Positions 1,100-43,300 are shown, counted from the stretch's first letter. The stretch is DNA of 64,000 nt from Intoshia linei (GCA_001642005.1 LWCA01000042.1:1-64000), one strand, 5' to 3'. The notes: generated by a model not told the origin, from the letters alone. Translations and numbers: made by a program.

Positions 1100-3023
1100 C
1101 TTGTGGTATTTGCTGCTTCAGCCATTAAAATAGCTTTTCGTAAATTATAATCTGATTCAATCATTAAACTATCTATAAACTCATTATTGTTAAATTTATC
1201 AATGTATTTGATATTTTTCTTTTCTCTAGCAAATATTTCAGTCAAAATTTCTCGAAACTAAATTATATCATCATTATTAAATAAATCCTTACTTATATAA
1301 ACTAGTGATTGTGATTTCCCAGGAAATGACAAAAGTTGAGAACCGGAAAATTTAATTTTTAATTTCCCGGGAAAAATAAAAAAATTTATTCATATATAAT
1401 ATAGAAGCATTAAAAATTTTAGAGACCTTAATTAATTTTAGAAACAAAAAGAAATTTAATTAATAAAATAACACGAATCTAGATTAAAATTTAATTTACA
1501 AATTTAATTAGAAAACAATTTATTTATTTTAGATTGTTGAAAAAGTGTTTTAAAACGCACAAAATATTGATAAATTCGTCTTTTAAAAACGTTCTATGTT
1601 TTGTAACGAAATTAAAAGCAGAAAGAGAAATTTCTTTCATTTTGTGTTGACGTAAATTTAACGGTCATAAGGGTTACCTTTAATTTTAACAATATTAATG
1701 ATAGCGCTTCAGTTCGTAACAACTCATAATATTTTTCAAAATAATATTGGAAAAAAAGGATAATTCCCTTAAGCGTTAGTAATTTGTGGTTGGAATAAGA
1801 GGTTTTTAAAAAAAATATTGGAAAAATGATATTTTTCCATTAAGGGCTGGAAAATTAGATTTTTTATTTGTGGTTTGATGAAGTACATTTTTTTCAGAAG
1901 ATTTCGTAAAATCGGATTTTTGAAATAAATATAGGTGTAAGTCAATTTTTCCATGAGAGCTTGAAATGGTATTTTTGTTTAAATTTTATTAGTGGTGGGA
2001 TTTTTGAAATGGTAAATTTTAAATATAATATAATCATATTTTCATAGTAATAATAAACATAAATCAAATACATGTATGTCTCAATTTTTTTCGGGAAATC
2101 CCGAGAATTTTGTCATGGCACAATCACTAATATAAAGTAAAAAGGATAAAAATGTATGTGAATTTATTTGTTAGAGTTTATTTAAGAAAATAAGGGGACT
2201 CGAGTTTTACAAATTCCATATTTCTATAACAGATTTTCCAGTTATGTTTTATCACAAATTTACAATTTCAGAAATTGAATCCTTCAAAATTAAAAACCCA
2301 ATTGTCCTTTATTTATAAATTATAAAAAATAAATATTCTAATAAAAAGTTTTAAATTCATCAATATTATGATAATTTTCAATTTCAAAATCTTATATCTT
2401 CACGACCAAAACCACAAATTACCCTTTTTTTTAAAAATCAACTAGTATATTAATATTACCTCATCTTGATTTGGCGAAGGAACTCTGACAATAAAACACC
2501 GACTTTGAACAGCAGAAGTAATCATGGTCAAAGAATTTGTAACAAAAAAAATGCGACATGTGCCCATATACCTTTCCATAGTGCGTCGCATAGCATTTTG
2601 TGCTGAAAAAGACAAAGTTTGAGCATCATTAATAACGACAACATTAAATTTTTTAGAATTTCCTATATTCAAAGTTCGAGACTTTGCCATTGTCTTAATC
2701 AATTCTTGAACTACAACTCTATCATGTATACCAGCTTCACTTGGATTGACAACAATATGGTGATTACTTGAAACGGTTTCAATTTCGACAGTTTTATTTG
2801 ACGGAGTTTTAAATTCATGACTATCAATTCTGACCTTTTCCACCTGACTTCCAAATATTTGACGTAATAAACATTTAACTAATGTATGTCTTCCCGAACC
2901 ATTTGCACCATGAAAAAGCAAATGACAATTATCTTGTGCCACAGATTTTAATTTATCATGAATATTTCGATGAAGTATCATTGAATCGAATTTAATCGGT
3001 CTGTGTTGATCTGCCCAAAGCAT
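1100..3023 (-). CDS. RFC3: Replication factor C subunit 3 (38 kDa); exon 1 3023-2460, exon 2 1257-~1100; 3' exons not confidently located
   Basis: MLWADQHRP, degenerate P-loop HLLFHGANGSGRHT, IETVSSNHHIVVNPSEAGIHDRVVVQELIK, AQNAMRRTMERY, SRC motif; exon 2 encodes DYNLRKAILMAEA (RFC3 NLRKALLM). Confidence 0.9.
1303..2129 (-). mobile_element. Non-autonomous hAT element in RFC3 intron 1 retaining a transposase C-terminal (dimerisation) remnant
   Basis: TIRs TAGTGATTGTG / CACAATCACTA; near-perfect 8-bp TSD ATATAAAC/ATATAAAG; minus-strand ~1660-1540 reads TSTQNERNFS.(frameshift)..FVTKHRTFLKDEFINILCVLKHFF. Confidence 0.8.
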
Positions 3024-3147
3024 TTTGTTGAAATTTGAAAAATTTAAACGGAACTGTAGTTCATTTACAAAAATAAAAAAAATTTACAATATAATTTATT
3101 TAGGACTTTACAAGGTAGGATATTAAAAATCAAATGTAAAAAATTCG

Positions 3148-9472: not shown

Positions 9473-9673
9473 ATGGACATTGATACCACCAACGAAGAAA
9501 TTGCATTAATTATAAATGAAAAGACACCGTTAAGAAAGAAGATATCAAAAAATTGTATTTCAGGAATGTCAACAACTGGTCAAATAATATGCGCAATCTT
9601 TCCCTTTTTGTGTTTTGGTTACTCAATTTTTGTGTTAATTTACATGTACGGTTATAATAAATATATGCTTTAA
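9473..9673 (+). CDS. Putative 66-aa single-pass membrane microprotein
   Basis: ATG ORF with EKTPL motif followed by one hydrophobic segment IICAIFPFLCFGYSIFVLIYMY; no homologue recognised. Confidence 0.35.
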   Translation: MDIDTTNEEIALIINEKTPLRKKISKNCISGMSTTGQIICAIFPFLCFGYSIFVLIYMYGYNKYML

Positions 9674-9677
9674 TTTA

Positions 9678-12600
9678 CCTGGTAGAGTAAACGTAGATTT
9701 ATCGTATGGTACATGATTTGAAAGTAATTGATTAATGTTTTGTGAATATTTTTCTTTGTTTTCAACAATTTCCTGTGCTAAAAGATGATATTCATTTTGT
9801 GAATTATCTTGTAATTTATTTTCTGAATCTGATGCGTAGAAATTACTAATATCGTTTTTTATTTTTTTATTTATACCGTTACTCATATCTTCATCTTGTC
9901 CTCGGTAATTTTCATGAAAATCTTTTTCAAATTGATCATTTATTTTAATTTTTGAATTAATGTTGGTGTCCGAATCCAAAACTAATTTAAAAGATTTATC
10001 TATGACTGACTTGGAATTCATCGTTTCGTCATTACTAGCAATGTCATTTTGATAGTCTTGATAAACACTGCTCTCTGTCAATTCATGAGAGTGAATTCTA
10101 TTTATATCTTTATCAGTATATTCAATATTGGATGCATTTTCAAAATCACTTTTTTTTGAATTTGTCCAAGAGTTATTATTGCTACTTACGATGTAACTTG
10201 CATTTCCTTTGTGTATTGTATAACTACAATTTGAACCATTTTCGTCTTGTCTGTTTACCCAGTCATAATGACTTTCATCAGTTTCCCAATTTATACTTGC
10301 GGGGACTATTTCTTGTGTATTCTCGTAAGGTTCTATAATGTAACTTGCATTACTTTTTTCTTCGCTAGATGTAATTGTATAACTTTTATCATCTCTAGGT
10401 ATTTTTTCTGTTTTATAAAAAAATGTTTTCTTTGAATTATTTTCACAAGCTAAACTGTAGTCTTCGTCTTCCGAATTAGGCATACCTATTTTTGAAATTA
10501 AATATATTAATTTTGTGGAATGGGTTTGTAATAGTGTTCATTTTAATGATTGAAAGATTTACACCTTGAAAAATTATTCAATTAACAGTACACTTGTGTA
10601 TATAAAAAAAATTTTTTACCTCACTTTAAAAATGCTAGAGTAGGTGGATCACTTTTTCCCAGATCCCTTGGGCGCACTTGGAACTAATTAAAAAAAGATA
10701 TGCATACAAAGCAAATAATATATATTAAGCATTTTAAATAAGTTACATATCTATTAAAATACTTTACTAGTGTATAAAATTTTGCAAATCTAAGATAAAA
10801 ATTTGTTATTTCGATACAAACTTAAAAAAATTTGATGGAACAGATCGTAACTGAAGTGGTTTACAGCTCGTTATCAATTTTGATTTGGAATATATTAAAT
10901 TTGATAGGCCCCATTAGTGCGCCCGCCGCAGAGATTGAGAAATATTAAGGTAAGGGAACACTTGCGAAATTTGAATATTTCTAAAACCAAAGTTAGATTT
11001 TCAACGTTAACTTATTTTTTAAGTATAATAAAAATGTGCCCTCGGCAGAGCTAGGTTCTGTTTGTACGTAGTACATAACAGTCCACCTAGTTATTGTATA
11101 TTTCTTGTGAAACACAAATTGTTACAATATTAAAAAATTTAAATTATCATGTAAATTTAAATTAAATTTGAAAATCGATGGAACTTTAAAGTTTAATTTA
11201 AAAACTTTTTAAATCAAGTTTATTAACAAGTTTAATTTATTTTAAATTTTAAACTTGTTTCTCTATATTAATCAAAATCATATGAATTTTACTGTAATGT
11301 ACGATTTAGGTGTATTATTTATAAAACATTTTTATAGATTAACTTAAGATTGATTAACGGGTTAGCCCAGTTGTTCCCAAAGTTTTTCCACCATGGATCA
11401 CTTGTCACACAATAATTTCCTTAATCCTGAACACGTCATTAATTTAATATTTATATTTTATTACATAAATATTCACAATGTATATATTCCTCCTTAAATC
11501 ACAAATTTTACATTACTTTTGACATGGTAGCTTCAATAGCGTAATTAAAAAATTATTAATTCAAACATACTTATGGCGATCTATTAGTCCCGAACCTATT
11601 GTATTCGAGATCCTTCTATTGAGGGATCTCGACGAAATTTTTTTTAAATGGTGTCTTTAATTTGTTAAATTGAGCATTAAAAAAATTCTTGAATATCAAC
11701 CAATTTGTGTGATAAATTTAAAATCTCAACTCAAGATTATAAATTTCATAGATATTAGGATGGTTATATGCATTTAAACATTTATATATGACTGCATATA
11801 TAGTCATTACCAGTTTACACACTTTTGCGTATCTCAAAGCCTTATAAATTATGTATATTTTTAAAAAATCCAAATTTTTCGCCAGGTATACAGGTCGATA
11901 ACTAATGGGTTAAGTTGATATTTGATATAAACGTACCTCGTTTGCTATCACGGTATTTTTTACTACTATTACTTATGACAAATGATGTTTTTTCAGTTTC
12001 TGACTGTAAATCAGATTTAATCGACTTGTAATTCTTTTCATGATTGTATGATGTATCTAAAATATAGTACTAAGTATATTACTGTATTAGTATAGTTGAC
12101 CACAAATTGTTTGAATTTAAATATAATTTTCATTTTTGATGAATATTGAATTTTCCCCTTTCCATTCACACTTATTATAATAATAATAATTATTCGCGTA
12201 TGGATGTGAAAATAATGTAATTTATATACAGTCTAATATCATATCATATGAAGAGTTTCAAATCTGGAGGTTTATAACATTTTGGTGGCAATATAAATTG
12301 AAATAATTTATATTTTTTACGGGGAATGCGTAGATTTCTGGATTACTTTTTTGTCTATATCAAGTTTATATTGTTAACTGGAACAAGCTGCGCCAGAATA
12401 ATCTTTTTTTTAAATTCTAGAATTCAATATTTCAAATTTCTTGTTTTATTATTAATAAAATAGATACCAATAAAAAAATGCATTCCAAAGTGTTTTTTCA
12501 CAGTGAAGGTATCACTCTGTCAGATTGAAATTTTTTATGTGTGTTAACTGGATATCACTGTATCAGTTGTATTTTTTTTAAATTTTAGGACTAATCATTA

Positions 12601-15090
12601 AAAAAAAAGTAATATGGGGTTTTGATAGTGAAAATTATCTTTTGTGAGGTTGCCATTTATGATAATGCTTATGATTTTAAAAAATATCCAGAATTTATGT
12701 TTTATAAAATTATAGGACATTTTTCATTTTTAAAATAAAGAGTAATTTGAGTCTTGATTTAGATCATGAAGGTATGCGTTTCTTATGCTCAGATTTAAGA
12801 AAATGTTAATAATTTTAAAACGCGTCTTTTTAAATTTAAAATCGCAGAATTTATGATTTTTTTAATTTTAAATTGTATTTATCTTTAAAAAAAATGGCAA
12901 ATTAGGTTTTTGACCATGAATGTCTCAATTTCGAAGAATAAAACATAAATATAAACATCATTCGCAAAAAACTGTATTCGAAATTGGGTTTTTATAAATT
13001 TTACAATAGTTAATTTTTCAAATAATAAGTAACAGACAGACACACATTCAATCCTAACTTATATAATATGCTACGCGATTTTTGTTTGTGTGTGTGTGTC
13101 TGTGTGTCCAGCTTTAGTTAAATAACTACCCGTCTTAGAATTTTATAAAGTCCACATTTCAATTACAGTTTTTTCCGGCGGTGTTCGCAAAATAAATTTC
13201 AACCTCCCAAACTCAGATCTTACGGGTCAAAAATTCCAATTATCCCTTTTTTTGAAAATTAAACGTTTTGGAGAATTTAAAAAAATTATATCTTCAGGGC
13301 CAAAACCACAAATTCCCTTCCTTTTTTTTTGGAAAACAGCCCTAGAATTTAAAAAAAATAACAGGTTGTACAGTTGTATCCTGTTAACACACACAGAAAA
13401 TTTCAATTTGAATAAGTGACGCCTTCACGGTCAAAAAAGCATTTTAGTATTCATATATTTTTTCTGGAAATAATATTCCTTCAAAAGATTGATAATAGTG
13501 AATAGTACAATTTTTAAGTTAAATTTTCAACGTGAATTTATATTTTTGGTAGAATAAAAATGTGACCTCAGCAGAGCTAGGTGCTGTTTGTAAGTAGTAT
13601 ATAACAGTCAACCTAGTCTTATATAAAACTTTATTCAACGCTTATTTTTTATTTACCCAGTTTAAGAACGAATTGAAAAAGTGGGATATAATATTTAACT
13701 GGCTGCGAACTCTGCATTTAAACGTACTAAACTATGTGTTCCTGTGAATAAATAAAAGTGTGAGTATTTACACTTATTTTCATCGCTATCAGAGTCCATA
13801 TGCTTAATATTGCTCACATCATCTAGAAGCGACTTTACTATATATAAATTTAATAGTGAAATAAAATAAAATATGCTTATTACTGTTTGATGATCTCTTA
13901 TTTGAAATGTTATTTGTATTTGAATTATTTGTCGTCAATTGGTTAATGTAATCGTCTAGTAATTTCTCTTTGTTTCCAGATTGATTTAATGGTTGTAAAT
14001 TACCTAATTAAACTTTTATGAATATAAATATATAGAATGATATTTCAATTTATGTCATAAAAATAGAACAACATTTAGGAAATCGATACAATAAACTCAT
14101 TAAATTACCTATAAACGTAAGACACCGTGATTTTGCCCTTGATTTATTGTCCCTTTTAGTGTGTCTCTTTTTTATACCTAAAACAAACGTTTATATCATA
14201 ATTGTCTGTCATTACTTTTGTTTGTGTTACCATTTCTTTCACGGTTTATATCTAAATTTCAAATTAATTAAGTTAAAAATTAATATTACTAAAAAATGAT
14301 TCAACTTCATCTTCTTCCCCTAAATTATTTTCATGTAATTTCAATTATAGATTATATACCAGATATTTTTTTGTAACTATACTTAGTTTTTCGCTGCCTT
14401 TTTGTTGCATATTGAGGCCTCATTTCCATATTGTTTTCTAATAACTGCATTGAATCATTTTTTGTTTTTATTGGAATCGGAACCTTTGAATATAAATGAT
14501 AAAGTATCATTGATAATATTTGAAATAATAAAAAATTAATTAAATTTCGTTACAAGTTATAACATTTCGACAATATTTTATCTACAATTGACTGTATAGA
14601 TTTTTTAGTTGGGTAATCCTATTTATCGCTGTAAATTAGATTTTGGAAGAATTAATTTTATTGACAGGGGGACCAAGGTATGAAAACATTTTAATATAAT
14701 TAATCAATTTGTATTATATGCTGTTTTGATGGTTACAGTGTGTCTATATCTTTAAATTTAAAAAAAATTCGAAAATTATGCAAATCCCAACATTGTCAAA
14801 CGAAAGACAACCCTATATGGAAATTAAAATATTCCTTCTTCAATGGGTATCATTATTCTTTTTAATAAAAAATTTATAAAGTACATTATGTAAAGTATAT
14901 TATAAATTTATTCTTTTAAATATTTATGATGTTATTGTATTTTAATTCATTATTTACAAAAAATGGAAAACAATAAATACGTTAAGATACCTGCCCTGGT
15001 GATGCAATGACTAATTTTGAACCAATTTTTTCTTTTAGTAAGTCGAAAGCACTTTTTTGAGTCATTGACTGATTTTATTTAATAAATTCA
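9678..15090 (-). CDS. Uncharacterised multi-exon low-complexity (Ser/Asn/Asp-rich) protein; may start further upstream (~18170) and may continue downstream
   Basis: Large exon 10485-9678 (AG|GTATGCCT...CCAG|GTAAAT) is phase-compatible with exon ~12056-11936 (DTSYNHEKNYKSIK...RDSKR); further small GT/AG-bounded open segments at 13700-15090. Confidence 0.55.
10940..11090 (+). mobile_element. 3' fragment of the Helitron-like family (terminal hairpin + CTAG|T)
   Basis: CTCGGCAGAGCTAGGTTCTGTTTGTACGTAGTACATAACAGTCCACCTAGT; same end as the 13052-13616 copy. Confidence 0.7.
12290..13050 (-). mobile_element. Non-autonomous Helitron-like element, minus-strand copy (second subfamily)
   Basis: Reverse complement of the family modules also seen at 16298-16775, 42380-43030 and 53085-53812; (GTCT/GT)n microsatellite at its 5' end. 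Confidence 0.7.
13052..13616 (+). mobile_element. Complete non-autonomous Helitron-like element (~565 bp)
   Basis: Starts TCCTAACTTATATAA, has a (GT/GTCT)n microsatellite, ends in hairpin + CTAG; flanked by A (13051) and T (13617) with no TSD. Confidence 0.82.
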
Positions 15091-16297
15091 AATTGATTTT
15101 ATTAGTACTGATGTTTATTATACTATTTATTAACAGTGTAAATAAATAAAACATAATGTTGAATATTGTGTATTACATGTAGATATTACATCCATATTCT
15201 TTTTTATTTAAATTATGAGTACATGGTCATTTGTTTCATTTACATTTTTTTTAATATTATTTCCTTCAAATAGAAATTGTATATGATGGATGATTAGCTG
15301 GCATTAAAACACATTATGATTAGCAAATTTAAATATCACATGCATAAGAAATTTTTAAATTAGCTGGTAACAACTGTACATTACTCCTATCTTAATTTAT
15401 GATTGATATTGATTATACCGCAAAAATCATTAATAGTTTCATTATATGTTTGTTTATATTTTCAAAAATTACGAAAATAGTGTCAGATATATCGATAATT
15501 ATAATTAGACTAATATGTCAATCCAATTACTTTTTTTAGAGATTATTTATATGGCTATACCATTATGCAATTAATTTGTAAATGAAATATAGATAATTTA
15601 ATTTATTAGATTTGATCAATGACCAATTATTTTTAATAATGAAAGCAGTCCATTTTTATTATCCATCAATTAATCAAAATTTTAATAAAAATTCCAACTT
15701 ATATAAACTCTTAGTTTGTCTCTGTGTCAATGTGTCATCGTTTATTTAAATGGCTAAGAGTCTTAGAATTTTAATAAACACAAATTCCAAGTCAGTTTTT
15801 TCTGGGGAAGAAGTAATATAAATTTCAACCTCCGAAACTTACATCATACCGGTCTAAAAATCAAATTATCCTTTTTTTTAAATTAATTTTAAAGTGTGAT
15901 TTTAAGGAAATTTTTTTGTACCATATTTTAAACATGGTTCCAGTATTACATTTTAAAATTTAAATAAAATCAAACGAGACCTAAAATTGCTTAAAATTTA
16001 CAACTGGTGAAAAGCAAATGTTTTTACATTAACATTTTAAAAAATTTGGTCTTATATTAATTAAAATGTAATTTAATGAAGGTTTTAAACATTCTATATG
16101 ATGTTTCTTAGTCGTTTATTTCTATAATTATAATTGTAGTTATATAAATTTATTCTTGGTTATTTTTTGTAATGAAAAGATAAACAAAACTCACACAAAT
16201 ACAATGTAATACGATTCAAAACCATTTAGAATCGCATCGGCATCAGAATCGTTGAAAATTTAAGAAATTTTGTGGCATCACTAATTTGATCATGTTA

Positions 16298-17540
16298 ATC
16301 CTTGACTTACATGTATATAAATATGAATGTCTGTGTGTATTTGTGTGTGTAACCATTTATTGAAAAAATAGACTGTCGCATGATTTAAAAAATCCGATTT
16401 TCTAATACCGTTTTATCTATTTTTCACTTTCAGAATTTGAGTCCTTCATGGTTAAAACCACAAATTACCCTTTGTTTTAAAAATAAAACATGTCCTAAAA
16501 TTTTTTTAAACATAAATTCTGGGATAGTTTTTAAAATCATAAACATTATCAAAAATAAAAACCCTTAAAAAAAATATATCTTCAGGGCCAAAACCCCGAA
16601 ATTACCATTTTTTTTTAAAATGAAAACAGCTCTAGAATTTAAACAAAATTACAGGTGGTACAGTTGTTATCTTTTAAAATACACAAACAAATTCAATCTG
16701 AATAAGTGACGCCTCCACGGTCAAAAAAGTACTTTAGTATTCATATATTTTTTTTCGAAATATTTTATTTATAAAATATATACAGTATAACCTCTGTTAT
16801 TCGCTCATTCCGTTATTTTTCCAAAATTTCTCATAAAAAATATCAAATTTTATATGTAATAAATTCAATTTTTTATTTTATAATCGTTTCATATAACTAA
16901 CTAATTAACAAGTAAATAATTATGTGATTAAATAACTAATCTAACCAATATAACCGACTTTGATAATCGACAACATCAATTAAAATTAATTTATTTACTT
17001 AATTTAAAAGAATGAAATACACTCGATTAACTAACGAAGAAAAATGCAGAATCATAAAATATTCACAAGAAAATATATTATGTTCCCATAATCAATTGTC
17101 ACGTATTTTCTCGACCATATTAAAAAAAATTATAAAAAAGAGATCAATAACTGATTATTTAAAAAGCAAGGTAGAAGTGTACATAGGATATCTGAAGGAA
17201 GTGGGGATTTAAAAAGAGATTATACATTAAAATATGATGATGTAGAACGCAAATTATTGATTTGGATTGAAAAATTAGAAATGAAAGAAATGATATTAAC
17301 TGATTTGATATTAGTGGAAAAGACGAAAATTTTGGTACAAGAAAATAACATAACAGACTTAAAATGTTCGCAAGGGTGGCTAGATAAGTTTAAGAGAAAA
17401 AACGCTTTAAACTTTAAATTATTTGAAATAATTAACCGTTCGAAAATTAAAAAAAAAAAAATTATTCTGATAGAGAGTATACCATTTAATATAAATACAA
17501 TATTTCAATCCCAGAAGTCTATGCATTCCCAGTGAAAAAC
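16298..17540 (+). mobile_element. Helitron-like copy interrupted by a truncated pogo/Tigger element
   Basis: Family modules at 16298-16775 resume at ~17430-17540 (ATTATTCTGATAGAG...CCCAGAAGTCTATGCATTCCCAGTGAAAA). Confidence 0.65.
16783..17430 (+). mobile_element. pogo/Tigger transposon 5' half (CENP-B-type HTH transposase pseudogene)
   Basis: TA|CAGTATAACCTC terminus; MKYTRLTNEEKCRII and LKCSQGWLDKFKRKN motifs; catalytic domain and second TIR absent. Confidence 0.8.
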
Positions 17541-18440: not shown

Positions 18441-21400
18441 ATGATGAAAAAGTCTAACATTATTATAAATTACACATTGGGTGCTGTTACTGATCCTGTA
18501 TTTCATACATTGTTTTTTTACATTTGATATTGTTTATAACAAATAATATTTTAATTTTAGAAGGATATGGATGTTCGTTTGAGCAGTTTTCAAAAAAAAA
18601 AAATGCATTCTCGCATTAGAACTTTGGAAGATGCGGAAAAGGATCTTAGAAACGACATTCAGAAATTGGAATTACGACAAACTTCTGATGAGTCAATTAT
18701 GTGCATTCTTAATCAATATTGGAATCGAGTTTGTTTTTGATTTTATTTATTTTATTGTGCTTTGTTTTATTTTTGATATTATATTTTTTAATTTTAATAT
18801 TTTATATAAATTTTTCATTTTTTATGTTTTAAAATTAAATTAAAATATTTTTTATTTAACTGGATATTTAAGGATATAATTATTTATTTATTACTATTAT
18901 CGAAATATACGAATGGTGTATTATATTTTATATTTGACGAGTTACGAGTGAGTCTGATGTAATCTTATTAGATTAACTATATCAGTAATTTAAAGGATTT
19001 ATTGGAATTTAGTGGGAGAAATATTTGTGATAAATATAAATATATCAGAAAAATTTTAATTGATGGAAGCGGTTTGCCGTAAGGCCTAGGTCAGCGGTTC
19101 CCAAACTTTTTTGTTGTGGACTACTTGGCATAATAATGAAAATGACATGGTCTAAAAATTGTTTAACTATAATTAATATGGTTATAATATAATTTTTTTA
19201 ATATTAAAATGTAATTAATATATTACAATTATTATTAGTTACTAATAATTAGTATGAGAATTTATGAGAAGTATGAATTTTTTCACATTTTTTTTGAATT
19301 ATTAACTTATACCTAGTAGTATAATCTGATAATGCACATCTAAGATCTTCCTCAACTTTCAATTTATTTCTGTTTTTGGTTTTTATGCTGCATAAAGCAG
19401 AAAATCCTATTTCACATAAGTATGTACTTGAAAAAGGGATTTAAACTTTTAAAGCAGCATCGTATAGTTTTGAATTTTTTCATGAAATTCAATTCCAGAA
19501 ATATTCAATTGGCTTCGATTTAAATATATCTTCATGATAACTGTTATTCTGTAATTCCAAAGGTTCTTGTAAATTTATATCAACTTCTTTTAAATTACAA
19601 ATAAAAGGGTTGCGACATACCTTCATTAACACATCAATGTCTTCAAATGGGAAATATTTAACAAATTCGGCATGTAATATATCCAAAGGATTAGTGATTT
19701 TATTTTTAACATCATTGAGAATACTGTTTCCATCAAGACAAGAATTCATATTAGGAAACATTATTGTTATGTTCACATTAATGCGATATTTATATAATCG
19801 CAATTTAGCCAAAAAATAATTGGTTAAATCTTTATGCTTCATAAGATTTGATTTTTTTCCTTGCATTTTTCGATTTAAACTATTACACATTTATAAAAGA
19901 TCAACTACATATCCTATATAAACATTGTCAGAATTAAACGTTGATGTTAATGAACTACCTTTTTTATCAAGAAATCCTTTAATTTCTTCTAAAAAAAACG
20001 AGTTCAAAAATTTCCAAGAATTTCATTATTAGAAAAATATCTACAATATGCTAACAATCATGAATTTGAAGAACCATCTTGTGTCTCATCTAATTGTGGA
20101 GAAAATTTTATAAAATTCAAATTAGATATTGTCTGATCATTAATATCATGAGAAATGTCACTAATTCTTCTTTTTACAGTATTATTTGATAATACAATTT
20201 TGTCAACTTTTTGAGCCGACGATTCTCCAAAAAGTATTTCCACAAATTTTTTAGTACATGGAAGAATCAAATTTTTGCCAATGGTATGTTTTTCTTTAGC
20301 TATCATGTATGATACGTTATAAGAAGCTTCGACATATTTTAAATCACTTTGAAAAAAATTAGTAGCAGTTGTTTTTAATCGTTTTTGATTTCTAACAAGG
20401 GCCTCAAAGTAGGAAGGTTCCATATTCATTAATTCAGGATGTATTTTAGTAAGGTGGTTTTGTAATTTTGATGGATTCATTAACGAATTTCTTAATTCTT
20501 TCAAACAAACCAAACATTTTGCAATCTCATATTTATTTAACGTTATATAAGTAAAACCAAATTTGATGTAGTCACAGTTGTATTTCCTCTTTAGGCTACT
20601 ATTTTTAGACATAATTAGTAATTGTTATCGGATAAATCAACAAACGTCGGCAAACAAATTCCGGAGACTCAAGTACCGCTTTAGTCAATACCATATATAA
20701 TATGTTAGCATGTTTGACAATACTCGACAACGTAGTCGGTGTACAATACTTGGTATTCATGGGTGATGATAGTCTCTTTAGGGTTGATGACGAATTCGTT
20801 TCTCAACATGGTGTACGTAAATAAGCGACGTATTATAACTTCTCTGCAAAATTCATTATCATTATTAATTTCTAATACAATTTTTTTCTGTAAATAAGCT
20901 AACCTATCAATCTCTTTACTACCTTGACTATTGTGCAATAATAATTTATTACATTGGTAGAACCTATATGTACCTATATATATCTAATACATCATTATTG
21001 ATGTAATTCAATTACTCAGGACTTTCTACTTTTTCCTTTTCATACATCATGTTTTTAACATATTTTTCCAAAAGTTTTTTTAAGTTTACATATTTTTCGT
21101 TTCCAAACAGACTATTTTTTTAAACCTTTTTAATTCTTCTTGAAAAGACAGTCCTGGAACCTCCAAGAAGGCTGTCTCATCAATTGATACTGTTAAATAG
21201 TAGTAGGCACTGCTCACACGTCCCTTTGAGTGAGGACATGTAAACAATGCGCTAATTAGATCGAACATCTTATCAAGCAACATTAATAATTTATTTGTTT
21301 AATTATTAAGATAATATGTTTCTTTTCCTATTTTAACACATGGAGGGTTCTACACTGAGTTTTTTAAGAGTATACGACATTCCGTCTAAATGTTTATGAA

Positions 21401-24400
21401 CAGTATTTGTTGATACATTTAATTTATCATCAAATTTGTGAACATCTCAAATGGATGAGGAATTGTAGATCCTATTACTGCTTTGCTCCACGACATGTGT
21501 CTTAGATCGTCACAATATGTTGCTGTGAATCTCCAACAATTCCTTCAGTTTGTATTACGACCAGCAGTCAGTCTGTTGCTAGATTCTTCAGAGTTAATGA
21601 TTTTTATATATACGTTTTTTGGAAATTTCCTAGAAAATATTAATTTGATTGTCTTAGAATTTTGGATTAATCCACATATAGTGTCTGAATATCCATACAG
21701 TTTGGATTGAAACAATTCTGATATGAATCTCGGGAAGAAAGGTGTCACATATGACAGGTATTGTACAAAGTTGCTTTGGTCTTTAAATGTAGGGTCCAAA
21801 CTTCCCTGAATTTCCTTGTTTTTTATCGAGGATCTTCTTGCTTCTATGCTTTTCCGAACTTAATCTTTTATAAGATTTAGAGTACTTGGAGCATTTATAA
21901 GATTAAGACCTGATGGATTGTTTATCAATTTTAACATATCGGAGAATCTATACGTCTTTATCCTACATGATCCGGCTGTCAGTGATAGTACCTTACAATA
22001 CTTGCATGTAGTATTTTCATATACAGACTTCCAAAAGAATACTTTCACAGACCGGGTCTGGAAATTGCGTAATTAAAAATCTGGTCAATGCTGCTCTCTC
22101 GGGCTTCCTATACCAGGGTCTAAGAACAAGAAAAAGTTAACTAGTGTAGATATTGTGCCTTGTATTACATCCATATAATTGCGTTTTAATGCTTGGGTAA
22201 ATGTCAGGAACTTGTATATGCTTCTATTACCGTACATTACGTATAGTATTATGCTTTTTAACATGTTCTCGCTGGTTTGACATATTGTTAAGCACGTTGT
22301 ACTAATCGTAGATATTATATTCGCAGCTGTCAAGACTTGATCATTCGGAGTGAGTCCAACTTTTCCAAATCTCGTAGGTTCTGTCCTTAGCATTAATTGT
22401 ATATATAATATTATTTTCTCATATACTAGCAAATTCGTCGATGAATATGTCTCGTCTGCTTTAATCGTCAACCCTAAATAGCTTGCCCATCTTTTAATTG
22501 CGTTAATAAGCGACTTGTATGTCTTGTATGACACATTTGTTTGTTTTATATCACCGTGCTTCTTGTTTCACCTATTAGATTTGGTGGTAAGTGATAAGTA
22601 GGACAGATCACTTGGTTATCACCTAGTGCTAAAACCTGCACTTTGACATTTCTAGTAGCACACTCCTTTTCTTTCATTAACAAGCTGACAATGCTCCATC
22701 CGTTTTGTTGTAAGCCTTTATTTCCACTTAACTGGCTGTTCCATGCCAATCTAAAAGGAATTCTCAAAGAATTCGTGAGTTCTTTTGACAACATTAGTAA
22801 ATCCGAATGATCTGTATTAGACTTTAAATATGATAGCTGTAGAATCGTACCTTTGATGATTGTTCCATTTTTCATAATCCAAATGGTATGCAAAAGTGAT
22901 TAAAATATTATTGGAGTTTCCATGTCCATGTCCATGTCCAGGTACACATTTTATTTTTTTGAATAATCGGTTAAGATTGTCAATGATCCGAATAGTGGTG
23001 CAATGAATAACCAAAATTTACTTTAATTCATTTATTTTTAAATGTGGTTATGGTTGATTTTTTCTATCTGTACAATTTTTGTCATTTGTCAAGAATTTAT
23101 GCAAAATTTTGATGAAAATTATCATAATTATATATGGAAAAATTTAAAATAATTTCATTATCAATGTGAAATGTAAAGTCAAATTAATTTAACAATTGAC
23201 TCCATTGAATTAGAAATTTGCATGAGATTTGAAAATAATTAAATTTTAAGGAGTAGGATTATGATCCAACATGAGATAACTATGTTGATAATATTAATCA
23301 AGTATATTTTAATCTTGCATTAATCTCAAGTTTTATTATAAATATATTTTGGACTTTTTTAACATTGATAGATTAATTTTAATTTTTTTTAATTATACAA
23401 GATAAAATTTTCTTTCATCTAAAAAATTGTATTGCTTTTTATTTAAACTAGTATTATTTATTTAGGTTTACACTGATTTGAACATATTTTTAAAACGCTT
23501 TATCAATAATGAAAATGAACTAATGGATTCTGATACATTCTTAAATCACAATTCAATATCAAACATTTCTGAAGAAGACATTAAAACCATTATGGAGAAT
23601 CGCTATCATAAAGTAAGTACCCTCCTAGACCAACTTACACCTCTATTGGTCAAAAACATGCTCAACAATTCCTTTAAGGGTATGTTCACTATTATTATTA
23701 TTTTAAAATCAATATTTTGTAGGTGATTCTTCTCTCAGTGATACAGACAAGGAAGAAAATGTTACATCATTTTACAACGATCAAAACCAAAATTTACAAA
23801 AGCTGAACAATGAACTACACCAATTGAATAGTCAACTAAGAATAGAAGTATATAATTGTTAAATTTTTATATATTTCATATTATAGAATTCACAATACAT
23901 TTTGGAGAAAAATAAAACGGATAATGAAATTGAGGGTTTAAAAAATAAAATGGAAAGCATGGAAGCAGATTTAGATAGATCCAACGAACTAATATCCAGA
24001 TTAGAATTTTCAGTTAGGCAGTTTTCAGAATCTAATAATTTAAATACTCAAACTACTAATTCAAACGAAAAAAATGTAAACTTGAAATCAAACTCCAAAG
24101 ATTCAGATTCCGCTGTAGGTGACGTACATCATGATTTGGAAGACTTGAAGGAATTGGCTGAATCTCGTCAAAATGACATACAAAATTATCAAAAGAAAAT
24201 CATCAATCTATTGAAAGAACGAGATGAAGCAAACAACAAAGTTTTTATGTATGAATCTCAAATTAGTAAAGATGAAAAATACCAACAATTGTGCCATTCA
24301 TATACTATTCTTCAAAAGGCTTTAATTAAAAAAAATGACGATTTTAATAATTATATGGTAGTAAGCAAAAGAAAACACGATAAAGTGACTAATGACATGT

Positions 24401-26763: not shown

Positions 26764-29700
26764 ATGGAAAATTTCAAAAAGATATCTCGGCATTTGGGAT
26801 TTTTAAAAAAAGATCAAGTACCAACTGAAACTAATTTAAATGTGAACGACGACAAAGATCCCAATCCTTCGCAGCTTAAAATGTTGGAAAATACTTGCTT
26901 GAATCCTGAACCAGTACACGAAACTGTAACTAGGGTCACGTGGAGCAAAAAAATTGACTTTTTGTTGTCTGTCATAGGATTTTCAGTGGACCTTGGAAAT
27001 ATTTGGAGATTTCCATACATTTGTTACAGAAATGGAGGAGGTAACATATTTTAACATTTCAATTTTAATTTAATGTATCTGCTTTTGATACTTTTATATT
27101 TAATTAATTTTTTAATTTCGACAGCTGGCATTCAAAGTTTTTTATTAAATTTATTCTTTTGTTTTTCTTTATTCAGTTTTTAGTTTAACTAAATTTATAA
27201 ACATTTGTTCATAGGGTAAGTTTAGAAAATACCATTCAATATACATTGCATTTGATATTTAAATCTTGTATTACATTTATTTACATTTTTTTTAAATTTT
27301 AGTCAATTTCTCATGAATCGTTTAAGATTAATGTTTATATGTCAATGTTAATGCTTATTTGATTTATAATTCATATTGGATAATGGATTTTTTAATATTT
27401 CGATGGATTTATTATTAAATCTATAATTATTATATAATTTTATCATAATTATCGTGATATAATCGGTTAACCTATAATATAAAATTACTCTGTATTAATT
27501 GTAGTTTTGTTTTACTATTTACATTCAAAATTTAATAATACAATAAGAGTTAAAAAATATATAATATACCTTGAGGTATTTTTATGTGTAACGTTTTTAG
27601 AGTTTTTAAAATTACTTTTTAAAATTTTTTTTACTTCTCCAGTAGGTATGGTAACTTTATATCCCATTCTTTTAACAATTTTAAACGTATTATTCAATCC
27701 TTTAAAAATCTCAAAAAAAAATTATCTGTTGAGATTATCCATTGAAAAATGGACACTGTCCATTCGACAGACCCAGTTTTTAGATATTATAATAATAGCA
27801 GTAGATAATGATTCATTATATATTTAATATGTAATGTATATATTATGCATCAAAAATGAATCAATTGTATAAACGTGCTAAATCAACATTTAGGAGCTTT
27901 TTTGGTGGCTTATGTAATAATGCTTATTTTTGGAGGACTGCCTCTATTTTATATGGAGCTTGCATTAGGACAAGTGCAACGTACCGGTTGTATATCTGTA
28001 TGGAAAAAAATTTGTCCCATGATGAAAGGTATTCAAATTAGTTTTAAAATTTAGAGATTTATCAATTTAAGAAAATAAAAGAATAGTGACAAATTCTGTA
28101 GGGATGTCTGACTTCATGAATTTTTTAAAAATGTATTATTATTCAAGTGTAGAGATTTAAGAGACAAAATTAAGTATAAAACTTTTCACAAAATTCTAAT
28201 TTTTATGTCAAGTTTATGCAGTTAAAATTTAGTTCCAATTATGTGCTCTGCATAATTATCATTTTGGGGTATATGATCTTTTAAATTGATTGTTTATAAA
28301 CTAATTATAATTATAAAATAATAATAAATAAAAGGTACTATTTTTTATTATGTTGTGCTTTGAAATATACTAATATTAAGTGTTACCATTATTAGGTATA
28401 TAAATATACATTTTATGAGATTTATATAAGTCAGGATTTCCATTTTTAATACAATTTATTAGTAACGAATTCTTTAAGTTTTTCAGATTTTTATATAAAT
28501 TTACTTTAACCACCATTTACCAAAATCGACAATTCAAAATTTTTGTTTAATAAAATTTTAATAATAATAGAATCTAGTTTCTAAGAAACTGCTAACCGAT
28601 TTAGTATATATCATAATATAGTATTATAATACATTTTACTATACAGTAGTTTAATGAAAATGCTGAAAACAAAATTTTGTTTAAATTTTTATCTAAAATT
28701 AGTTTTGTTGTTCGTGAATTCTCTATTTCGCCATATATTTACATGTTCTCTATATAAATGAATGAATTTCACCACATTGTTCGCAAATCTATTTTTTTTA
28801 TGAAAAATTTTACTTTATTAACCAAGGGGGGATCAAAGCATGATAACATTTTATGGATTTATTTTGCAAAATTGATGGCGAATAACTAAGATTTGTATAA
28901 AAATTATAAGAAATATATTTTTTGAGTGAATAACTTAATTGGTTAATTTTAAGGCTCATATATTGAAGATTGCAGCTAAATATTGTATATAATTATAATA
29001 TTATTTTATATATACACTCGTTGACCGTTATGTATTACATACAAACAGGACCTAGCTCTGCAGAGGGCACATTTTTATTATACCAAAAAAATAAATCATA
29101 TCACATTACTTTTTACTTTAAAGTGAATTATTCCATCTTAATTTTTTTTAACATTTGAGATTGAAAAATTGCGTATCCATAAAAAAAATTTCGAAGGAAT
29201 AAATTATATAGATTTTCACCCAAATTTCTTTATTGGAAATGTGTAGACGTTCAATGCACATCTTTTTTGAAATTGTAGGATCAATATTTACCTTTTCAAT
29301 TTTTATTTTAATCAAAATATTTGAAAAATATTGGTTGATAATATGTTAAAAATTATTTTTCACCGAGAATGCGTAGATTTCAGGGATTGAAATTTTGTAT
29401 GTATATCAACTGGAATAAGCTCTATCAGAATTTTTTTTTTTTTTAATTTTCGGACCTTTAATTATTTCATATTTTTTGTTTTAATAAAACATTTCGAATA
29501 AAAAATTATCAATACTAAAATCCTTTTTTGACCGTGAAGTCATCACTTATTCGGATTGAAATTTTTTGTGTGTATTAACAGGATACAACTGTATCACCTG
29601 TAATTTTTTTGAAATTTTAGGGCTGTTACATAAAAAAAAGGTAATTCGTGATTTTGGCTTTGAAGATATATTTTTTTTAAATTTAAATTTATGATAATGT

Positions 29701-32700
29701 CTATGATTTTAAAATCCGTATCAGCGTATATATTTTTTAAATTCTCCAACTCGTTTGATTTTGAAAAAAAAGGACAATTGGGGTTTTTTACCCGTAAGAT
29801 GTGAGTTTGGGAGGTTGGAATTTATCTTATTATATTTCACGGAAAAAACTGTAATTGAAATGTGGACTTTATAAAATTAACCTTATTAAAGTTATCTCTA
29901 TTAATTATTGACCGATAAAATATGCATATTTAATAGGAATCGGGTTTGGAATATGCTTGATAGCTAGTTATGTAGCCATATATTACAACACAATATTAGC
30001 TTGGTCCATTTATTACTTTATCAATTCATTTCAAAAAATAATACCTTGGAGTAATTGTGATAACGATTGGAATACAGAAAATTGCGTCATTGTTAAAAAT
30101 GCCGACAATATGCAGTCAAATCGAACACTGAACAGTGCAGCCAAGGAATATTATTTGTAAGTTTAATAATTAAATTTTGTGATGAATTATTTTGCAATTA
30201 CGTAATTAATAATTAGCATAATATGTTAATTAAATGAAAGGTTTCCGTATCTGGGAATTAGAAATCTTTTTCATCGATGTAACATTATTATCAAAAAATT
30301 AGTACATCTTGTAAATCTTGCTATATTAAGAAATTTTAGGGGTCCATACAGTGGCAAATCTAAGATTTTCAGCCAGGGGAGCAAAATAAATACTACGGGA
30401 GCCAAACGCGTATAATTTATTTAAATTGGAATTTTTATATTGTTTTTTACAAATTGTAAATATTCCTATCTATAATAATAATTTATATATTTTTTTGTAC
30501 TACATTCATAGTTTTTGTATTCATTCTAGTAAATTTTTCAATATTGAACTGTTGAGTTGCATCAACTGCAGCTGAACTGCATCAAAATCGACATTTTCAG
30601 CAAGTTCTCTTTAAATTATGAACAACGTTAAATCATAAAAATTTAAGTTAAAACGTAAACGATAGGGCGTATAAAAATTTTTTAATTTTTCACATGTTAA
30701 TGATGTTAATACACAAATTAAAATATCTTAGGGCACATTTTTCACGTCATGGAGGCGGCCGAAATTAAGGAATAATACATGTCTAATTGTGGCGCAAATA
30801 TTAATGATAATAATTTTATTCATTTGACTAATAATCATGGTACAGTGCAGAATATTACCTATCTTATTTTGGCACAAATATTAATGATAATAATTTTATT
30901 CATTTGACTAATAATTATGGTACACTGAAGAATATTAGCTGTCTTATTTTGGCGCAAATATAAATGATTATAATTTTATTTATTTGGCTAATAATTAATG
31001 ATAAATTAAAGGATATTACTTGCAACTAATTCCATTATCTACATCTAAAAACAATTTGAGACATTCTTTTCTTTATAGTTTCATGATGTGAAACACCCTA
31101 GTAAGCTTATTACATTTGACGTGGATAGACGGGTAGCGAAATTTTAAAAAAGTAAAAATTAATTTTTATTTTTTAGTTACAAAGTATTAGAAATTCAAAA
31201 ATCGGATGGTTTAAGTAATATTGGTACTATAAAATTATCTTTGGCATTGTGCCTTCTTTTTTGCTTTTCCAGTGTTTATTTTGCACTATGGAAAGGAGTC
31301 AAATCTTCTGGAAAGGTAGATTATATAAATATACAAATTAATGTACGTTACTAAATATATTAATACTAGCTTGACTGTTTTGTACTTGGTAAAAACAGCA
31401 CCTAGCTTTGCCGAGGGTGGAATGTTATAATTTTACCAAAAAAATATATTCTTAAATAAAATTAACACTAGACACTATCACCAATCTTTTAAAGGAATGG
31501 TTGCCAAACGTTTGATTTTTTATTTATATATTCTAGGACGATTAATTATATCAAATTTTTTGTTTTAATGAAATAATTTCCCCAAAATCAAGGTAAACAG
31601 TAAATTCTTTTGTTAAATGAATGTTTAAGTTAACATTGAAAATTTTCATATATTGTAACTGGAAAAAGCTGTAAATTTCTAAGACATTTTTAGTTATTGA
31701 AATAAACGACAACACAAAGAGTTTTAGGAAATCATAATTTAGGATAATTTCCAATATTATATGTATTACAATTTTAGCGTCGCGAAAAACACGTTATAAA
31801 ATGTAAATTTTCCTGGATCACAAAATTTTTGCGTGGTCCCATAGGGCCCACATATTCCACGCTAAGAATGGTTGATTGATGGTTTGATGGATTGATTTTT
31901 TTAAACATCAATTAATATATTATTTAGGCAGTATGGATAACGGCAACATTACCTTATTTTATTCTTATAATATTACTAATACGTGGAGTAACATTACCTG
32001 GTGCTTCAGCTGGAATTCTTTATTATTTAATTCCGCAATGGGAAAAATTACTAGAAACTAAAGTATTTTATACATATGTTTATTTATATATAATTGCGGA
32101 AACTACTAACGGCTTTTCGCGGTAGGACCCCAGGACGGCACGTGTTCTCCATAAATTATGTATGAATTTAAATAATTTAGAATCAGTACCCGCGCAACTT
32201 CTAATATATTACGTTTTTTTACAAAACAATACATTCATTATAACAACTACAAAAAAAATTGATTCCACGACATACTTTACTTTATTTTTACTTAAATCTA
32301 ACCATTTTTACTAAAAATCCACTTTTACCAACCTTTAATGGAAAAATTCGGTTTTATTATCATTATTATTATCGGAAAAAATATTATAGATAAATAAAGT
32401 AAAGTAAATATAAAGTTTTTCACATGTTGCGTACGTTTAAGTAACATTTAAGTGATTTTTTCAATTGTATTTTTTATTTTAAAAATGAATAAGTTAAAAT
32501 TGAAACCACCATCCTTATAGTGCAGGGGTCACCAACTTTTGCATCCCATGAATCGTGGGTCATTTTTTTTATACCAAAAAATTATACGTCCCCGTTTTTA
32601 AATATTTACACCTGATACATTTCAATTTTAACTAAATTGAAACCATTCATACTCAACAAAATAAAATCCAGGGCGATCTGAAAATTTATAAAATGTTAAA

Positions 32701-40376: not shown

Positions 40377-43300
40377 ATGAGCAACGAGACAAAAGAATTA
40401 AAAAGAATTATGGGTTTATTGGATGGAATAGCCATAATAATGGGCGTAATTATAGGATCAGGTATTTTCATTTCACCAAAGGGAATTGTTATGAATGTTC
40501 AATCGGTAATTTTAATGTAATAGATTTTGTACATTTATATCTAATATTGACTGTGCGTGAATTATTAATATATATATATTTAGGTGGCATTATCATTAAT
40601 GGTTTGGGCAATGTGTGGAATAAGTACAGTAAATTTAAATTTTACATTGTAAATAATAATAATTTATTTATAAAAATTAAATATTACATTAGATGTTTGG
40701 AGCTCTAAGTTATGCAGAATTGGGCACACAAATAAATAAAAGTGGAGCAGAATACGCCTACATTTTACACATTTTTGGAAATTGTCTATCATTTTTAGTA
40801 TTATGGACTTCTATGCTTATAATTATGCCATCTACCCAAGCAATTATAGCATTAACATTTTCTAAATACATTGTTGAAACAATTTATCATGATTGTACTC
40901 CTCCAAGTCATCTTGTGACAATTTTTTCGATACTTGTTGTTTGTAATCTTAAAATTTAATTTTACTATTTATTCAAGTTTATTTCAGTGTTTTTCAAAAT
41001 GATTGAATTCTGGTACCCAAAAAAAAGGATAAAAAAAAAAAAAATATTTGTTAATAATAATAAATTTATGGGGGGGGATGATTATGATTATAATTGATTA
41101 TAAAATTAAGTTTTCAAATATTTTTCAAGAATATTAATCCATCTTCAACATATTGAAAAATATTGGTGAAAATTATTATTTTAGTCAATTTATTAGTTGA
41201 GTTTATTTTCTATTTTGTATAAATTAGTGTCTTATTGTTTACTATTTCTTATTACTTATTAAATAAAACTAAAAAATTAACATTGATAAAATCCTTAAAC
41301 CCAAATAAAAGTATTTTTAGGTTTCATTGGAGCAATAAACAGTTACAGTGTAAAAATTTCAACAAGTTTACAAAAAATTTTTCTTTTTGCAAAAATATTT
41401 GCACTTATTGCAATTATTTGTCTAGGAATTTATAGTTTAAGTTTGGGTAATGTTAACAATATTCAAAGAGGCTTCGAAAATAGTAGATATGATTTTGGAT
41501 CAATTTCGTTGGCTTTATATTCTGGACTTTTTTCGTTTGGTGGATGGTACGTTTTATTTGTAAATATAAATATTTTTTTAATATACATGTAATCACTATT
41601 TAACCGTTATTCGTTTATGTTTAATAATTTAGGACATATCTGAATTATGTTACAGAAGAATTAAAGGAACCTAAAAAGTAATTTTAAAACATTATTAGAT
41701 TTGTTGTGGTCATTTGTATGGTTCACATGTACAGCACTTCATCCTATATTTGAGAAATCCTGAGTGTATGATTCACTGTATATTTTATTTAACAATTTAA
41801 CAAAATCACAATAAAATGACTCATAAATGATCTCAAAATTATTCATATTTCAATTATTTTTCTAAGCGACTAATAAAAGTCGTCATTTAAATTAGGTTTG
41901 ATAAAATACAATTTTTACATTCAAAATCCTTCCATTCACTAAAACTCATGCAAAGGCCACGTATATAATTATAATAAAATTAGTATATTAATAGTAATAA
42001 ATGTAGAATATTAAATGTAATTATAATTAATATATTTAGAAATTTACCTCGTGCCATAATAATATCAATGTTGGCCGTCACAATTTTATACGTTTTAGTT
42101 AATATTTCATATTTTATTGTATTATCTCCACTTGAAATTATAAATTCTAATGCTGTTGGAGTGGTAATTATATTATTCAAAAATTAATGAAATTAAGTTT
42201 TATATTAACTCAATCTTTAATTTAAAGGTACAACTGTATAACTCTATTTCTAATAATTTCATGCTATAAAATATACACTTTACATGGAAATAACAGGTGT
42301 ATAACAATAATACGAGGTGAAATAACAGTTTTACACATGTTTTATGTTTTTCTGAGGTATAGTGATATATGATGAAGACAAAAAAATCAAATATAGAAAT
42401 TTGGCAGTCTGCATTTTAATAATTATTAAATTCAGTAGAATTGAAAAAACCCAATTTCGAATACAGTTTCGAATTACAATTTTCCTAATACGTGTTTTTA
42501 TCTATTTTTCCGTTTCAGGATTTGAGTTCTTCAGGGTAAAAAACGCAATTTTCCCTTTTGTTTAGAAAAATACATTCTATGACGCGTTTTAAAATCATTA
42601 ACATTGTCGTAAATATCAGCCTCAGAAACACATAATGTCATGGTGAAAACCGCAAATTACCCTTTGTTTAAAAAATTAAATATGAATTAAAATTTCATCA
42701 AACATAAACTTTGGTATAGTTTTTAAAATCATAAGCATTATAATAAATGGCAACCTCAAAAAAGTCAATTTTCACGATCAAAACCACAGATTACCTTTTT
42801 TTTAAAAATAAAAACCGTCATAGAATTTAAAAAAAAATACAGCTGATACAGTTATATCCAGTGAATACACACAAAAATTTTAAACTGAAAACGTGACGCC
42901 ATAACAGTCACAAAAAGTACTTTAATATTCATTTTTTTTGATTTCGAAATTATTTTATCAACAGGCAGTGGATGTGTATTAACAAAAAATTTTAAATAAT
43001 TAATGGTCCTGTTTTTACTAAAATATTAAAAGCAAGATAGGTTAAAATTAGATTTACTAAATTTACTAAATTATATATACAGTCAGACCTCAATTTAACG
43101 AACAGCAACTTAAATGAAAATTTCTTGTTCGTGAAAAAAAAGTTTACCAACAAACAAATTTATTTTTAATTAATTTATTTTTTTATAAAAATCACATATT
43201 GTTTTGTATCTTTTTTTTAATATAGTTTCTTTCACCGCTTGTAATGCAATTAAGCCATTCAAGTTATCAGAAATAAATAATTTTCCTAGTTTATCAATAC

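What the first reader, a model, noticed from the sequence alone, without database searches (positions are those of the whole stretch)
19084..23010. Virus-transposon chimera: rhabdoviral sequence replaces the 5' end of a Buster hAT element
Seen: the virus-like sequence ends (VSGICLPTF, resembling L just before the methyltransferase domain) only ~25-30 nt upstream of the transposase ATG at 20612, on the same strand. Only the 3' TIR (19092) and one target copy (GCCTAGGT) are present; no second TIR or TSD is visible up to the next BRE1 exon. Known: non-retroviral EVEs are usually associated with LTR/LINE retroelements. Inference: direct fusion to a cut-and-paste DNA transposon suggests viral cDNA captured during repair of a transposase-made break, or a transposon that mobilised viral cargo. 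A later deletion juxtaposing two independent insertions is the alternative.
Basis: partly seen in the sequence, partly recalled or inferred. Interest (0 to 1): 0.8.

Follow-up and report, generated by a model that had tools for sequence, protein, structure and literature searches.

The report
Rhabdovirus fossil fused to dead transposon
In an intron of a tiny parasitic worm's gene, broken rhabdovirus polymerase sequence sits where the front end of a dead cut-and-paste transposon should be, likely a one-off DNA-repair scar rather than a mobile virus-transposon hybrid.

Summary
A 4.7-kb BRE1 intron (gene model named Intoshia linei) holds a one-ended, internally deleted Buster hAT. It has a TIR at 19092, an nnnTAnnn target 8-mer, and a transposase remnant at 20612-19300. 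On the same strand lies a decayed rhabdovirus L fragment related to flatworm-parasite rhabdoviruses. Firm L homology (aa ~585-1125) stops at ~21430, 820 nt before the ATG. The gap has no match to the cap/methyltransferase region; part of it (21145-20744) weakly matches the L N-terminus, so the insert is probably scrambled. The junction lies somewhere in 20613-20744. Contigs from two studies span it, so it is not an assembly error. I found no second TIR, no second target copy and no diverged second viral copy, so mobilised cargo is unlikely. Best reading (0.5): viral cDNA pieces patched a break that removed the Buster 5' end. Independent inserts joined by a later deletion remain close (0.35). 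Viral RdRP genes in this species are already noted in print. Interest 0.4.

The parts
18729..23465 (+). BRE1 intron (4,737 nt, GT..AG) that holds the whole composite; three neighbouring introns are 39-63 nt
   Evidence: tables 5 and 8 (X3 record 14 joins 18728 to 23466)
19084..19091 (.). single target-site 8-mer GCCTAGGT (nnnTAnnn, Buster type)
   Evidence: consensus as stated in PMC3517528
19092..19108 (+). only terminal inverted repeat (3' end of the element)
19300..20612 (-). dead Buster transposase: ~437 codons, BED-like N-terminus, ~150 codons of the catalytic core missing near 20005-20037 with a frame change, 5 in-frame stops
20613..20744 (-). unresolved junction zone (decayed transposase start, filler or viral)
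20744..21145 (-). probable displaced N-terminal piece of rhabdovirus L (aa ~120-265); weak match
   Evidence: for; not above null
21145..21430 (-). unassigned stretch, ~30% GC, no match to L, to other rhabdovirus genes or to Pfam
21430..23007 (-). decayed rhabdovirus L polymerase core, aa ~585-1125 (motifs A-C to the start of the capping domain), several frameshifts, stops and a ~24-codon deletion near 22753
23092..23220 (.). short AT-rich dispersed repeat at the far end of the insert
   Evidence: diverged contigs with loose ends on both sides

Best explanation
A dead, one-ended Buster transposon and a decayed rhabdovirus L fragment lie joined on one strand in a BRE1 intron, and the viral DNA was likely pasted in during repair of a break that removed the transposon's 5' end. 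Shown: the anatomy, the decay of both parts, the missing 5' end, the reality of the joint in two studies, and splicing-out of the whole intron. Inferred order: (1) Buster transposed into GCCTAGGT in a short intron; (2) a host reverse transcriptase copied rhabdoviral L RNA into DNA; (3) a break at the element's 5' end, possibly from a failed excision or abortive gap repair, took away the 5' TIR, the leader and the second target copy; (4) end-joining filled it with probably two same-sense, out-of-order pieces of L (aa ~585-1125, then aa ~120-265); (5) the composite, unable to move with one end, decayed and is tolerated because it is spliced out.
For: No host-like AT-rich spacer lies between the parts: the gap is 30% GC against 18% in the native intron arms. 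Two relatives with both ends have a 1.2-1.55 kb leader that is wholly absent here. The gap's only match is to the L N-terminus, in one frame and register: 11.7 bits with the 11 closest L proteins, above all 1200 tile frames and 1000 shuffles; 9.2 bits with 8 clade members, 0 of 1200 and 0 of 1000; 22.6 bits against 23-57 for held-out real L proteins. That makes the insert non-collinear, as expected of patch repair or template switching (established knowledge, recalled). Another copy of this Buster family has a 267-nt deletion replaced by 27 filler bases that hold a 12-mer copied from the adjacent sequence, so templated filler repair occurs in this family. 36 of 66 nt of the junction zone are covered by inverted 7-mers of the 160 nt beside the target site, reached by 0 of 6312 other targets (chosen after the fact).
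Against: No footprint ties the break to the transposase. The 7-mer signal vanishes at k=8 and weakens at k=6 or with wider zones, and the zone may instead be the decayed transposase start. The N-terminal match is not above null with a 132-sequence profile, with hhalign or with an averaged-BLOSUM alignment, and 2 of 200 tiles beat it. Both parts have suffered later deletions, 7 of 28 related loci lack a second TIR, and a third repeat sits in the same intron, so nested inserts plus deletion need no special mechanism. No empty or intermediate allele was seen with which to order the events.
Confidence: 0.5

Rival explanations
1. Two independent insertions piled up in one tolerant intron: a retroelement- or repair-made viral insert and a Buster. 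A later deletion removed the Buster 5' end and the spacer and brought them together.
For: Internal deletions in both parts. One-ended Buster remnants are common, 7 of 28 (elements longer than the DNA held would count as misses). A third repeat lies at 23092-23220. In ticks hAT fragments occur near such inserts, 0.97% of flanks against 0.42% genome-wide, with no overall DNA-transposon enrichment (PMC6580184 passages).
Against: It needs two rare inserts side by side on one strand and a deletion ending within ~130 nt of the ORF start. No target repeat or poly(A) tail of a LINE-type insertion was seen at the viral ends.
Confidence: 0.35
2. Buster jumped into an existing viral insert, so viral sequence would continue beyond the TIR and target site (18930-19083); the 5' end was deleted later.
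For: That flank is 27% GC against 8-16% further left. One frame of it ranks 2nd to 4th at the predicted L register and is best placed there in 1 of 11 close L proteins.
Against: No match in free searches. Anchored at the predicted register it scores 7.7 bits, reached by 118 of 800 tiles and 73 of 300 shuffles. Held-out L proteins score 36-70 bits there, the flank 8.7.
Confidence: 0.08
3. A composite Buster carried the viral piece as cargo, and near-identical copies are collapsed elsewhere in the genome.
For: The contig over 20151-23133 has depth 23.2 in run X1 against 5.4-14.6 for the seven other listed pieces (8 of 40 pieces shown).
Against: It also has the highest GC of the pieces checked, and contig depth is no copy number. 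There is no second TIR or target copy. No extra contig at 80% identity or more lies on the L core or on 20435-20721. The TIR side shows depth 5-8 only. The other viral fragment in this species is 60% identical over 111 columns, about the same as an exogenous virus at 59%.
Confidence: 0.06
4. Assembly chimera of unrelated contigs.
For: No single listed contig spans the whole intron.
Against: Contigs of 3 of 4 runs from two studies cross 20600-20750 and 21430. An X1 contig crosses the target-site/TIR joint. An X2 contig joins viral sequence to the next BRE1 exon.
Confidence: 0.01

Closest known systems
Non-retroviral endogenous viral elements from rhabdoviruses (e.g. in ticks, mosquitoes, midges; PMC6580184, PMC11907880, passages seen)
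   Same: Decayed fragment of a mononegavirus gene in host DNA, with frameshifts and stops, lying among transposon remnants.
   Different: From L rather than the usual N or G; the neighbour is a hAT, not an LTR or LINE element; the host is an orthonectid; the insert is probably scrambled.
[quoted passage not shown]
   Same: Short CAG-starting TIR, nnnTAnnn target, BED-type transposase 27-42% identical to Buster-type proteins.
   Different: One end only; ~437 codons against 597-677; catalytic core partly deleted; leader replaced by foreign DNA.
Teratorn (piggyBac-herpesvirus fusion; PMC6431247 passages, PMC5822658 listing only)
   Same: Virus sequence joined to a cut-and-paste transposon.
   Different: Teratorn is a two-ended, active, multi-copy element with intact DNA-virus genes; this is a dead, apparently single RNA-virus fragment.
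Ds elements made by abortive gap repair with filler DNA, and cDNA capture at double-strand breaks (recalled, not read here)
   Same: Loss of part of a hAT with foreign or templated filler at the joint.
   Different: Ds elements keep both ends; here one terminus is gone and the filler would be RNA-virus cDNA.
Rhabdoviruses of parasitic flatworms (PMC9241645 passages; Himastelon, Psilo-, Sphaeridio-, Triaenorhabdovirus by database name)
   Same: Top sequence matches; one tree group, SH-aLRT 85.
   Different: Only 33-38% identical over the core; long branch (1.76); that paper reports its viruses as absent from host genomes.

Membership tests
rhabdovirus-derived non-retroviral EVE | homology to a rhabdovirus gene | tested here: met
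   PF00946 E 1.5e-48; rabies and VSV L E 2e-70 and 1e-66; 75 database hits, those with names all rhabdoviral; tree
rhabdovirus-derived non-retroviral EVE | joined to host DNA, not contamination | tested here: met
   lies inside a BRE1 intron; X1 contigs overlap from virus into the intron; an X2 contig joins it to the BRE1 exon
rhabdovirus-derived non-retroviral EVE | pseudogene decay | tested here: met
   frameshifts, stops and a deletion
rhabdovirus-derived non-retroviral EVE | source of antiviral piRNAs | not testable with these tools
   no small-RNA data; only an antisense-spliced contig in X2
Buster hAT | Buster-type transposase | tested here: met
   38-42% identity to 3 database proteins; 28-42% to transposases beside the same TIR in 5 metagenome loci; no transposase tree built
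Buster hAT | 8-bp nnnTAnnn target duplication | tested here: inconclusive
   one copy fits the consensus; the second copy is absent
Buster hAT | TIRs at both ends | tested here: not met
   it is a remnant of a Buster, not a complete member
composite virus-transposon (Teratorn-like or Pack-type cargo) | cargo enclosed by two TIRs and a target duplication | tested here: not met
composite virus-transposon (Teratorn-like or Pack-type cargo) | several genomic copies with the same junction | tested here: inconclusive
   no genome held; no diverged copy in X1, depth high but confounded by GC
LINE-primed (TPRT) viral insert | poly(A) tail and flanking direct repeats | tested here: not met
   longest direct repeat between the two ends is 8 nt, at chance level; no A-run over 7; decay could have erased them

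The most novel reading that the evidence does not exclude
A Buster hAT captured rhabdoviral cDNA at its own cut end and moved it as cargo, leaving near-identical collapsed copies: a cut-and-paste route for spreading RNA-virus sequence without a retroelement neighbour. The milder form, capture at a transposase-made break with no later movement, has a probability of about 0.3.
Probability: 0.06. Interest if true: 0.8.

Novelty: new member of a known kind. Interest (0 to 1): 0.4.

Why it matters
It is a fossil of rhabdovirus infection in an orthonectid. It groups with viruses of parasitic flatworms, which would extend that lineage to another phylum of invertebrate endoparasites. If the repair reading holds, it is a natural case of RNA-virus cDNA entering a genome at a DNA-transposon break rather than beside a retroelement, and one intron PCR across isolates can test that. 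As it stands it is one dead locus whose order of events is unknown.

Tried and rejected
Whole-genome search for other copies: no genome is held. Gap as L cap/methyltransferase region: rejected. Gap as another rhabdovirus gene: no tblastn hit under E 1.4 in 80 rhabdovirus loci, none in Pfam, only the window's own gene model among proteins of 30-455 aa, no usable Atlas hit; the single-sequence fold had pLDDT 36 and was not searched. Gap as Buster leader: no DNA similarity to the leaders of 4 relatives, but those relatives are too distant to decide. A TIR-like word at 21448-21432, at the end of the L core (12 of 17), is one of 9 equal minus-strand sites in the window and overlaps codons that match L; treated as chance. 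Viral continuation beyond the target site: not supported. No RNA holder was listed by record; intron arms without cover in X2-X4 were not used as evidence. The careful tree did not finish and the quick tree is cited; a second tree of the two viral fragments was not obtained (one search stopped after the identities). Earlier scan findings: none.

Full report
Setting. The window is AT-rich animal DNA with short introns. A database gene model read from this locus is named Intoshia linei A3Q56_00654; I. linei is an orthonectid parasite (recalled). The flanking gene ends in a BRE1-type RING (E 5.6e-27). Runs X2-X4 show spliced GT..AG joints, so I read them as RNA although their kind is not on record. 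One X3 contig joins 18728 to 23466, so the 4,737-nt intron is removed whole; three other introns are 39-63 nt.

The transposon. CAGCGGTTCCCAAAC occurs exactly once, at 19092. The two other matches within 3 mismatches are far off and on the same strand, and none is on the minus strand. GCCTAGGT occurs exactly once. The same TIR 18-mer is preceded by nnnTAnnn in 90 of 115 metagenome loci, 18 of them show a partner end with a matching 8-mer, and 5 carry a related transposase. That is the Buster target consensus as stated in PMC3517528 (passages). The transposase runs 20612-19300, about 437 codons against 597-677 for intact Busters (PMC12637253 passages). About 150 codons of the core are missing near 20005-20037, and there are 5 in-frame stops. 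Of four relatives examined, two had a 5' TIR, 1,224 and 1,552 nt upstream of the conserved N-terminal motif. Two had a start codon, about 30 codons before that motif; here it is 7. So the leader and perhaps the first codons are gone.

The virus. 23007-21430 matches rhabdovirus L aa ~585-1125 with several frameshifts, stops and a ~24-codon deletion. The best matches are 33-38% identical. In a quick tree of 50 rows it falls with Himastelon, Psilo-, Sphaeridio-, Triaenorhabdovirus and Beihai dimarhabdovirus 1 (SH-aLRT 85, long branch). PMC9241645 (passages) names Beihai dimarhabdovirus 1 as flatworm-virus-like; the flatworm hosts of the other names are recalled. A second I. linei fragment lies on another contig (A3Q56_04282). 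It is 60% identical over 111 columns, against 59% for Himastelon virus, so it is not evidently a copy of this insert.

The 820-nt gap. No profile or pairwise search matches it to L aa 1100-2120. The one recurring signal is to the L N-terminus, same frame, 21145-20744 against aa ~120-265. The scores were 7.0 bits with 73 proteins, 11.7 with the 11 closest (0 of 1200 tiles, 0 of 1000 shuffles), 5.9 with 31 (inside the null), 9.2 with 8 clade members (0 of 1200, 0 of 1000), 4.4 with 5, and -0.2 with a lyssavirus-like set. With 132 proteins it scored 2.8, inside the null, and hhalign found nothing. Held-out real L proteins score 23-57 bits in that region and the gap 22.6. I put about 0.75 on its being a displaced N-terminal piece. 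21430-21145 stays unassigned. The junction with the transposon lies in 20613-20744.

Is it real, and is it single? Contigs of X1, X2 and X3 cross both 20600-20750 and 21430, and X4 crosses the ATG; the runs belong to two studies. The X1 contig over 20151-23133 differs from the window at 11 letters and 2 gaps, much as three downstream contigs do (10 letters and 1 gap in 4,084 nt), which reads as allelic variation. Its depth is 23.2 against 5.4-14.6 for the seven other listed pieces (8 of 40 shown), but it is the most GC-rich of those checked and contig depth is no copy number. No further contig at 80% identity or more lies on the L core. Diverged Buster copies do lie on 19129-20300, but none on 20435-20721, so the family's 5' end could not be read.

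Mechanism. The TIR and the target 8-mer show that Buster arrived by transposition, not as part of a retro-copied chimera (inference). The viral DNA needs a reverse transcriptase from a retroelement (established; PMC6580184 passages). For capture at a break: no AT-rich host spacer (30% GC against 18%), the probable scrambling, filler with a copied 12-mer at a deletion in a sister Buster copy, and an after-the-fact excess of inverted 7-mers from the target-site flank in 20625-20690 (36 of 66 nt; 0 of 6312 other targets; not significant at k=8). For independent inserts and later deletion: deletions in both parts, a third repeat at 23092-23220, and 7 of 28 related loci with one end only. Buster landing inside the viral insert was tested and not supported. 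I give 0.5, 0.35, 0.08, 0.06 for cargo and 0.01 for artefact.

What is in print. PMC6396948 (passages) already says that I. linei has RdRP genes of viral families, probably acquired from viruses. [quoted passage not shown] Searches for Intoshia with 'endogenous viral element' or 'rhabdovir' found 0 papers, as did 'platrhavirus' with 'endogenous'. Searches for RNA-virus inserts fused to DNA transposons returned tick, midge and planthopper EVE papers and Teratorn (PMC11907880, PMC6580184 and PMC6431247 as passages, the rest as listings). Searches added nothing on this locus (listings only, apart from PMC6396948). The library lacks most subscription papers, and the genome paper was not seen.

Verdict. 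A genuine, decayed rhabdoviral insert abuts a one-ended Buster remnant in an orthonectid intron. It is a new member of a known kind in an unusual host and neighbourhood; the fusion mechanism is undecided and mobilisation is unlikely. Interest 0.4.

Noticed in passing
window 22933/22941 to 23466 (run X2): An X2 contig joins about 1.9 kb of the viral region to the next BRE1 exon, consistent with a cryptic GT donor at 22942. That would be a minor spliced transcript antisense to L (depth 10.7 against 1373 for the exon contig).
   Followed up: partly
protein P0191 (OAF67982.1), another contig: Second rhabdovirus L fragment in the same species, aa ~550-745, 60% identical to this one; its DNA context was not available.
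   Followed up: partly
window 19452-19720 (runs X1, X2): A sister Buster copy has 267 nt replaced by 27 filler bases that include a 12-mer of the adjacent sequence: templated repair.
   Followed up: partly
window 23092-23220: Short AT-rich dispersed repeat; weak similarity (76% over 50 nt) to 2349-2393, beside repeat family D2.
   Followed up: partly
window 17155-17535 and 43505-43921: Two pogo/Tc5-type transposase DNA-binding fragments (PF03221).
   Followed up: no
window 12466-16782, 29294-29878, 42461-44628, 48284-49778, 53158-53705, 60266-60568: Abundant dispersed repeat family with internal units of about 133 nt, in both orientations.
   Followed up: no
window 9635-10537: 300-codon open frame on the minus strand with only a weak Pfam hint (E 0.013).
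   Followed up: no
window 11368 and 43843: TIR-like words (3 mismatches of 15) on the plus strand; possible ends of other hAT remnants.
   Followed up: no
window 2442-3083 and 26764-27039: Host genes: a clamp-loader-like AAA+ exon (PF13177) and a sodium:neurotransmitter symporter exon (PF00209).
   Followed up: no
window 30770-31009: Three tandem copies of an 80-nt unit.
   Followed up: no
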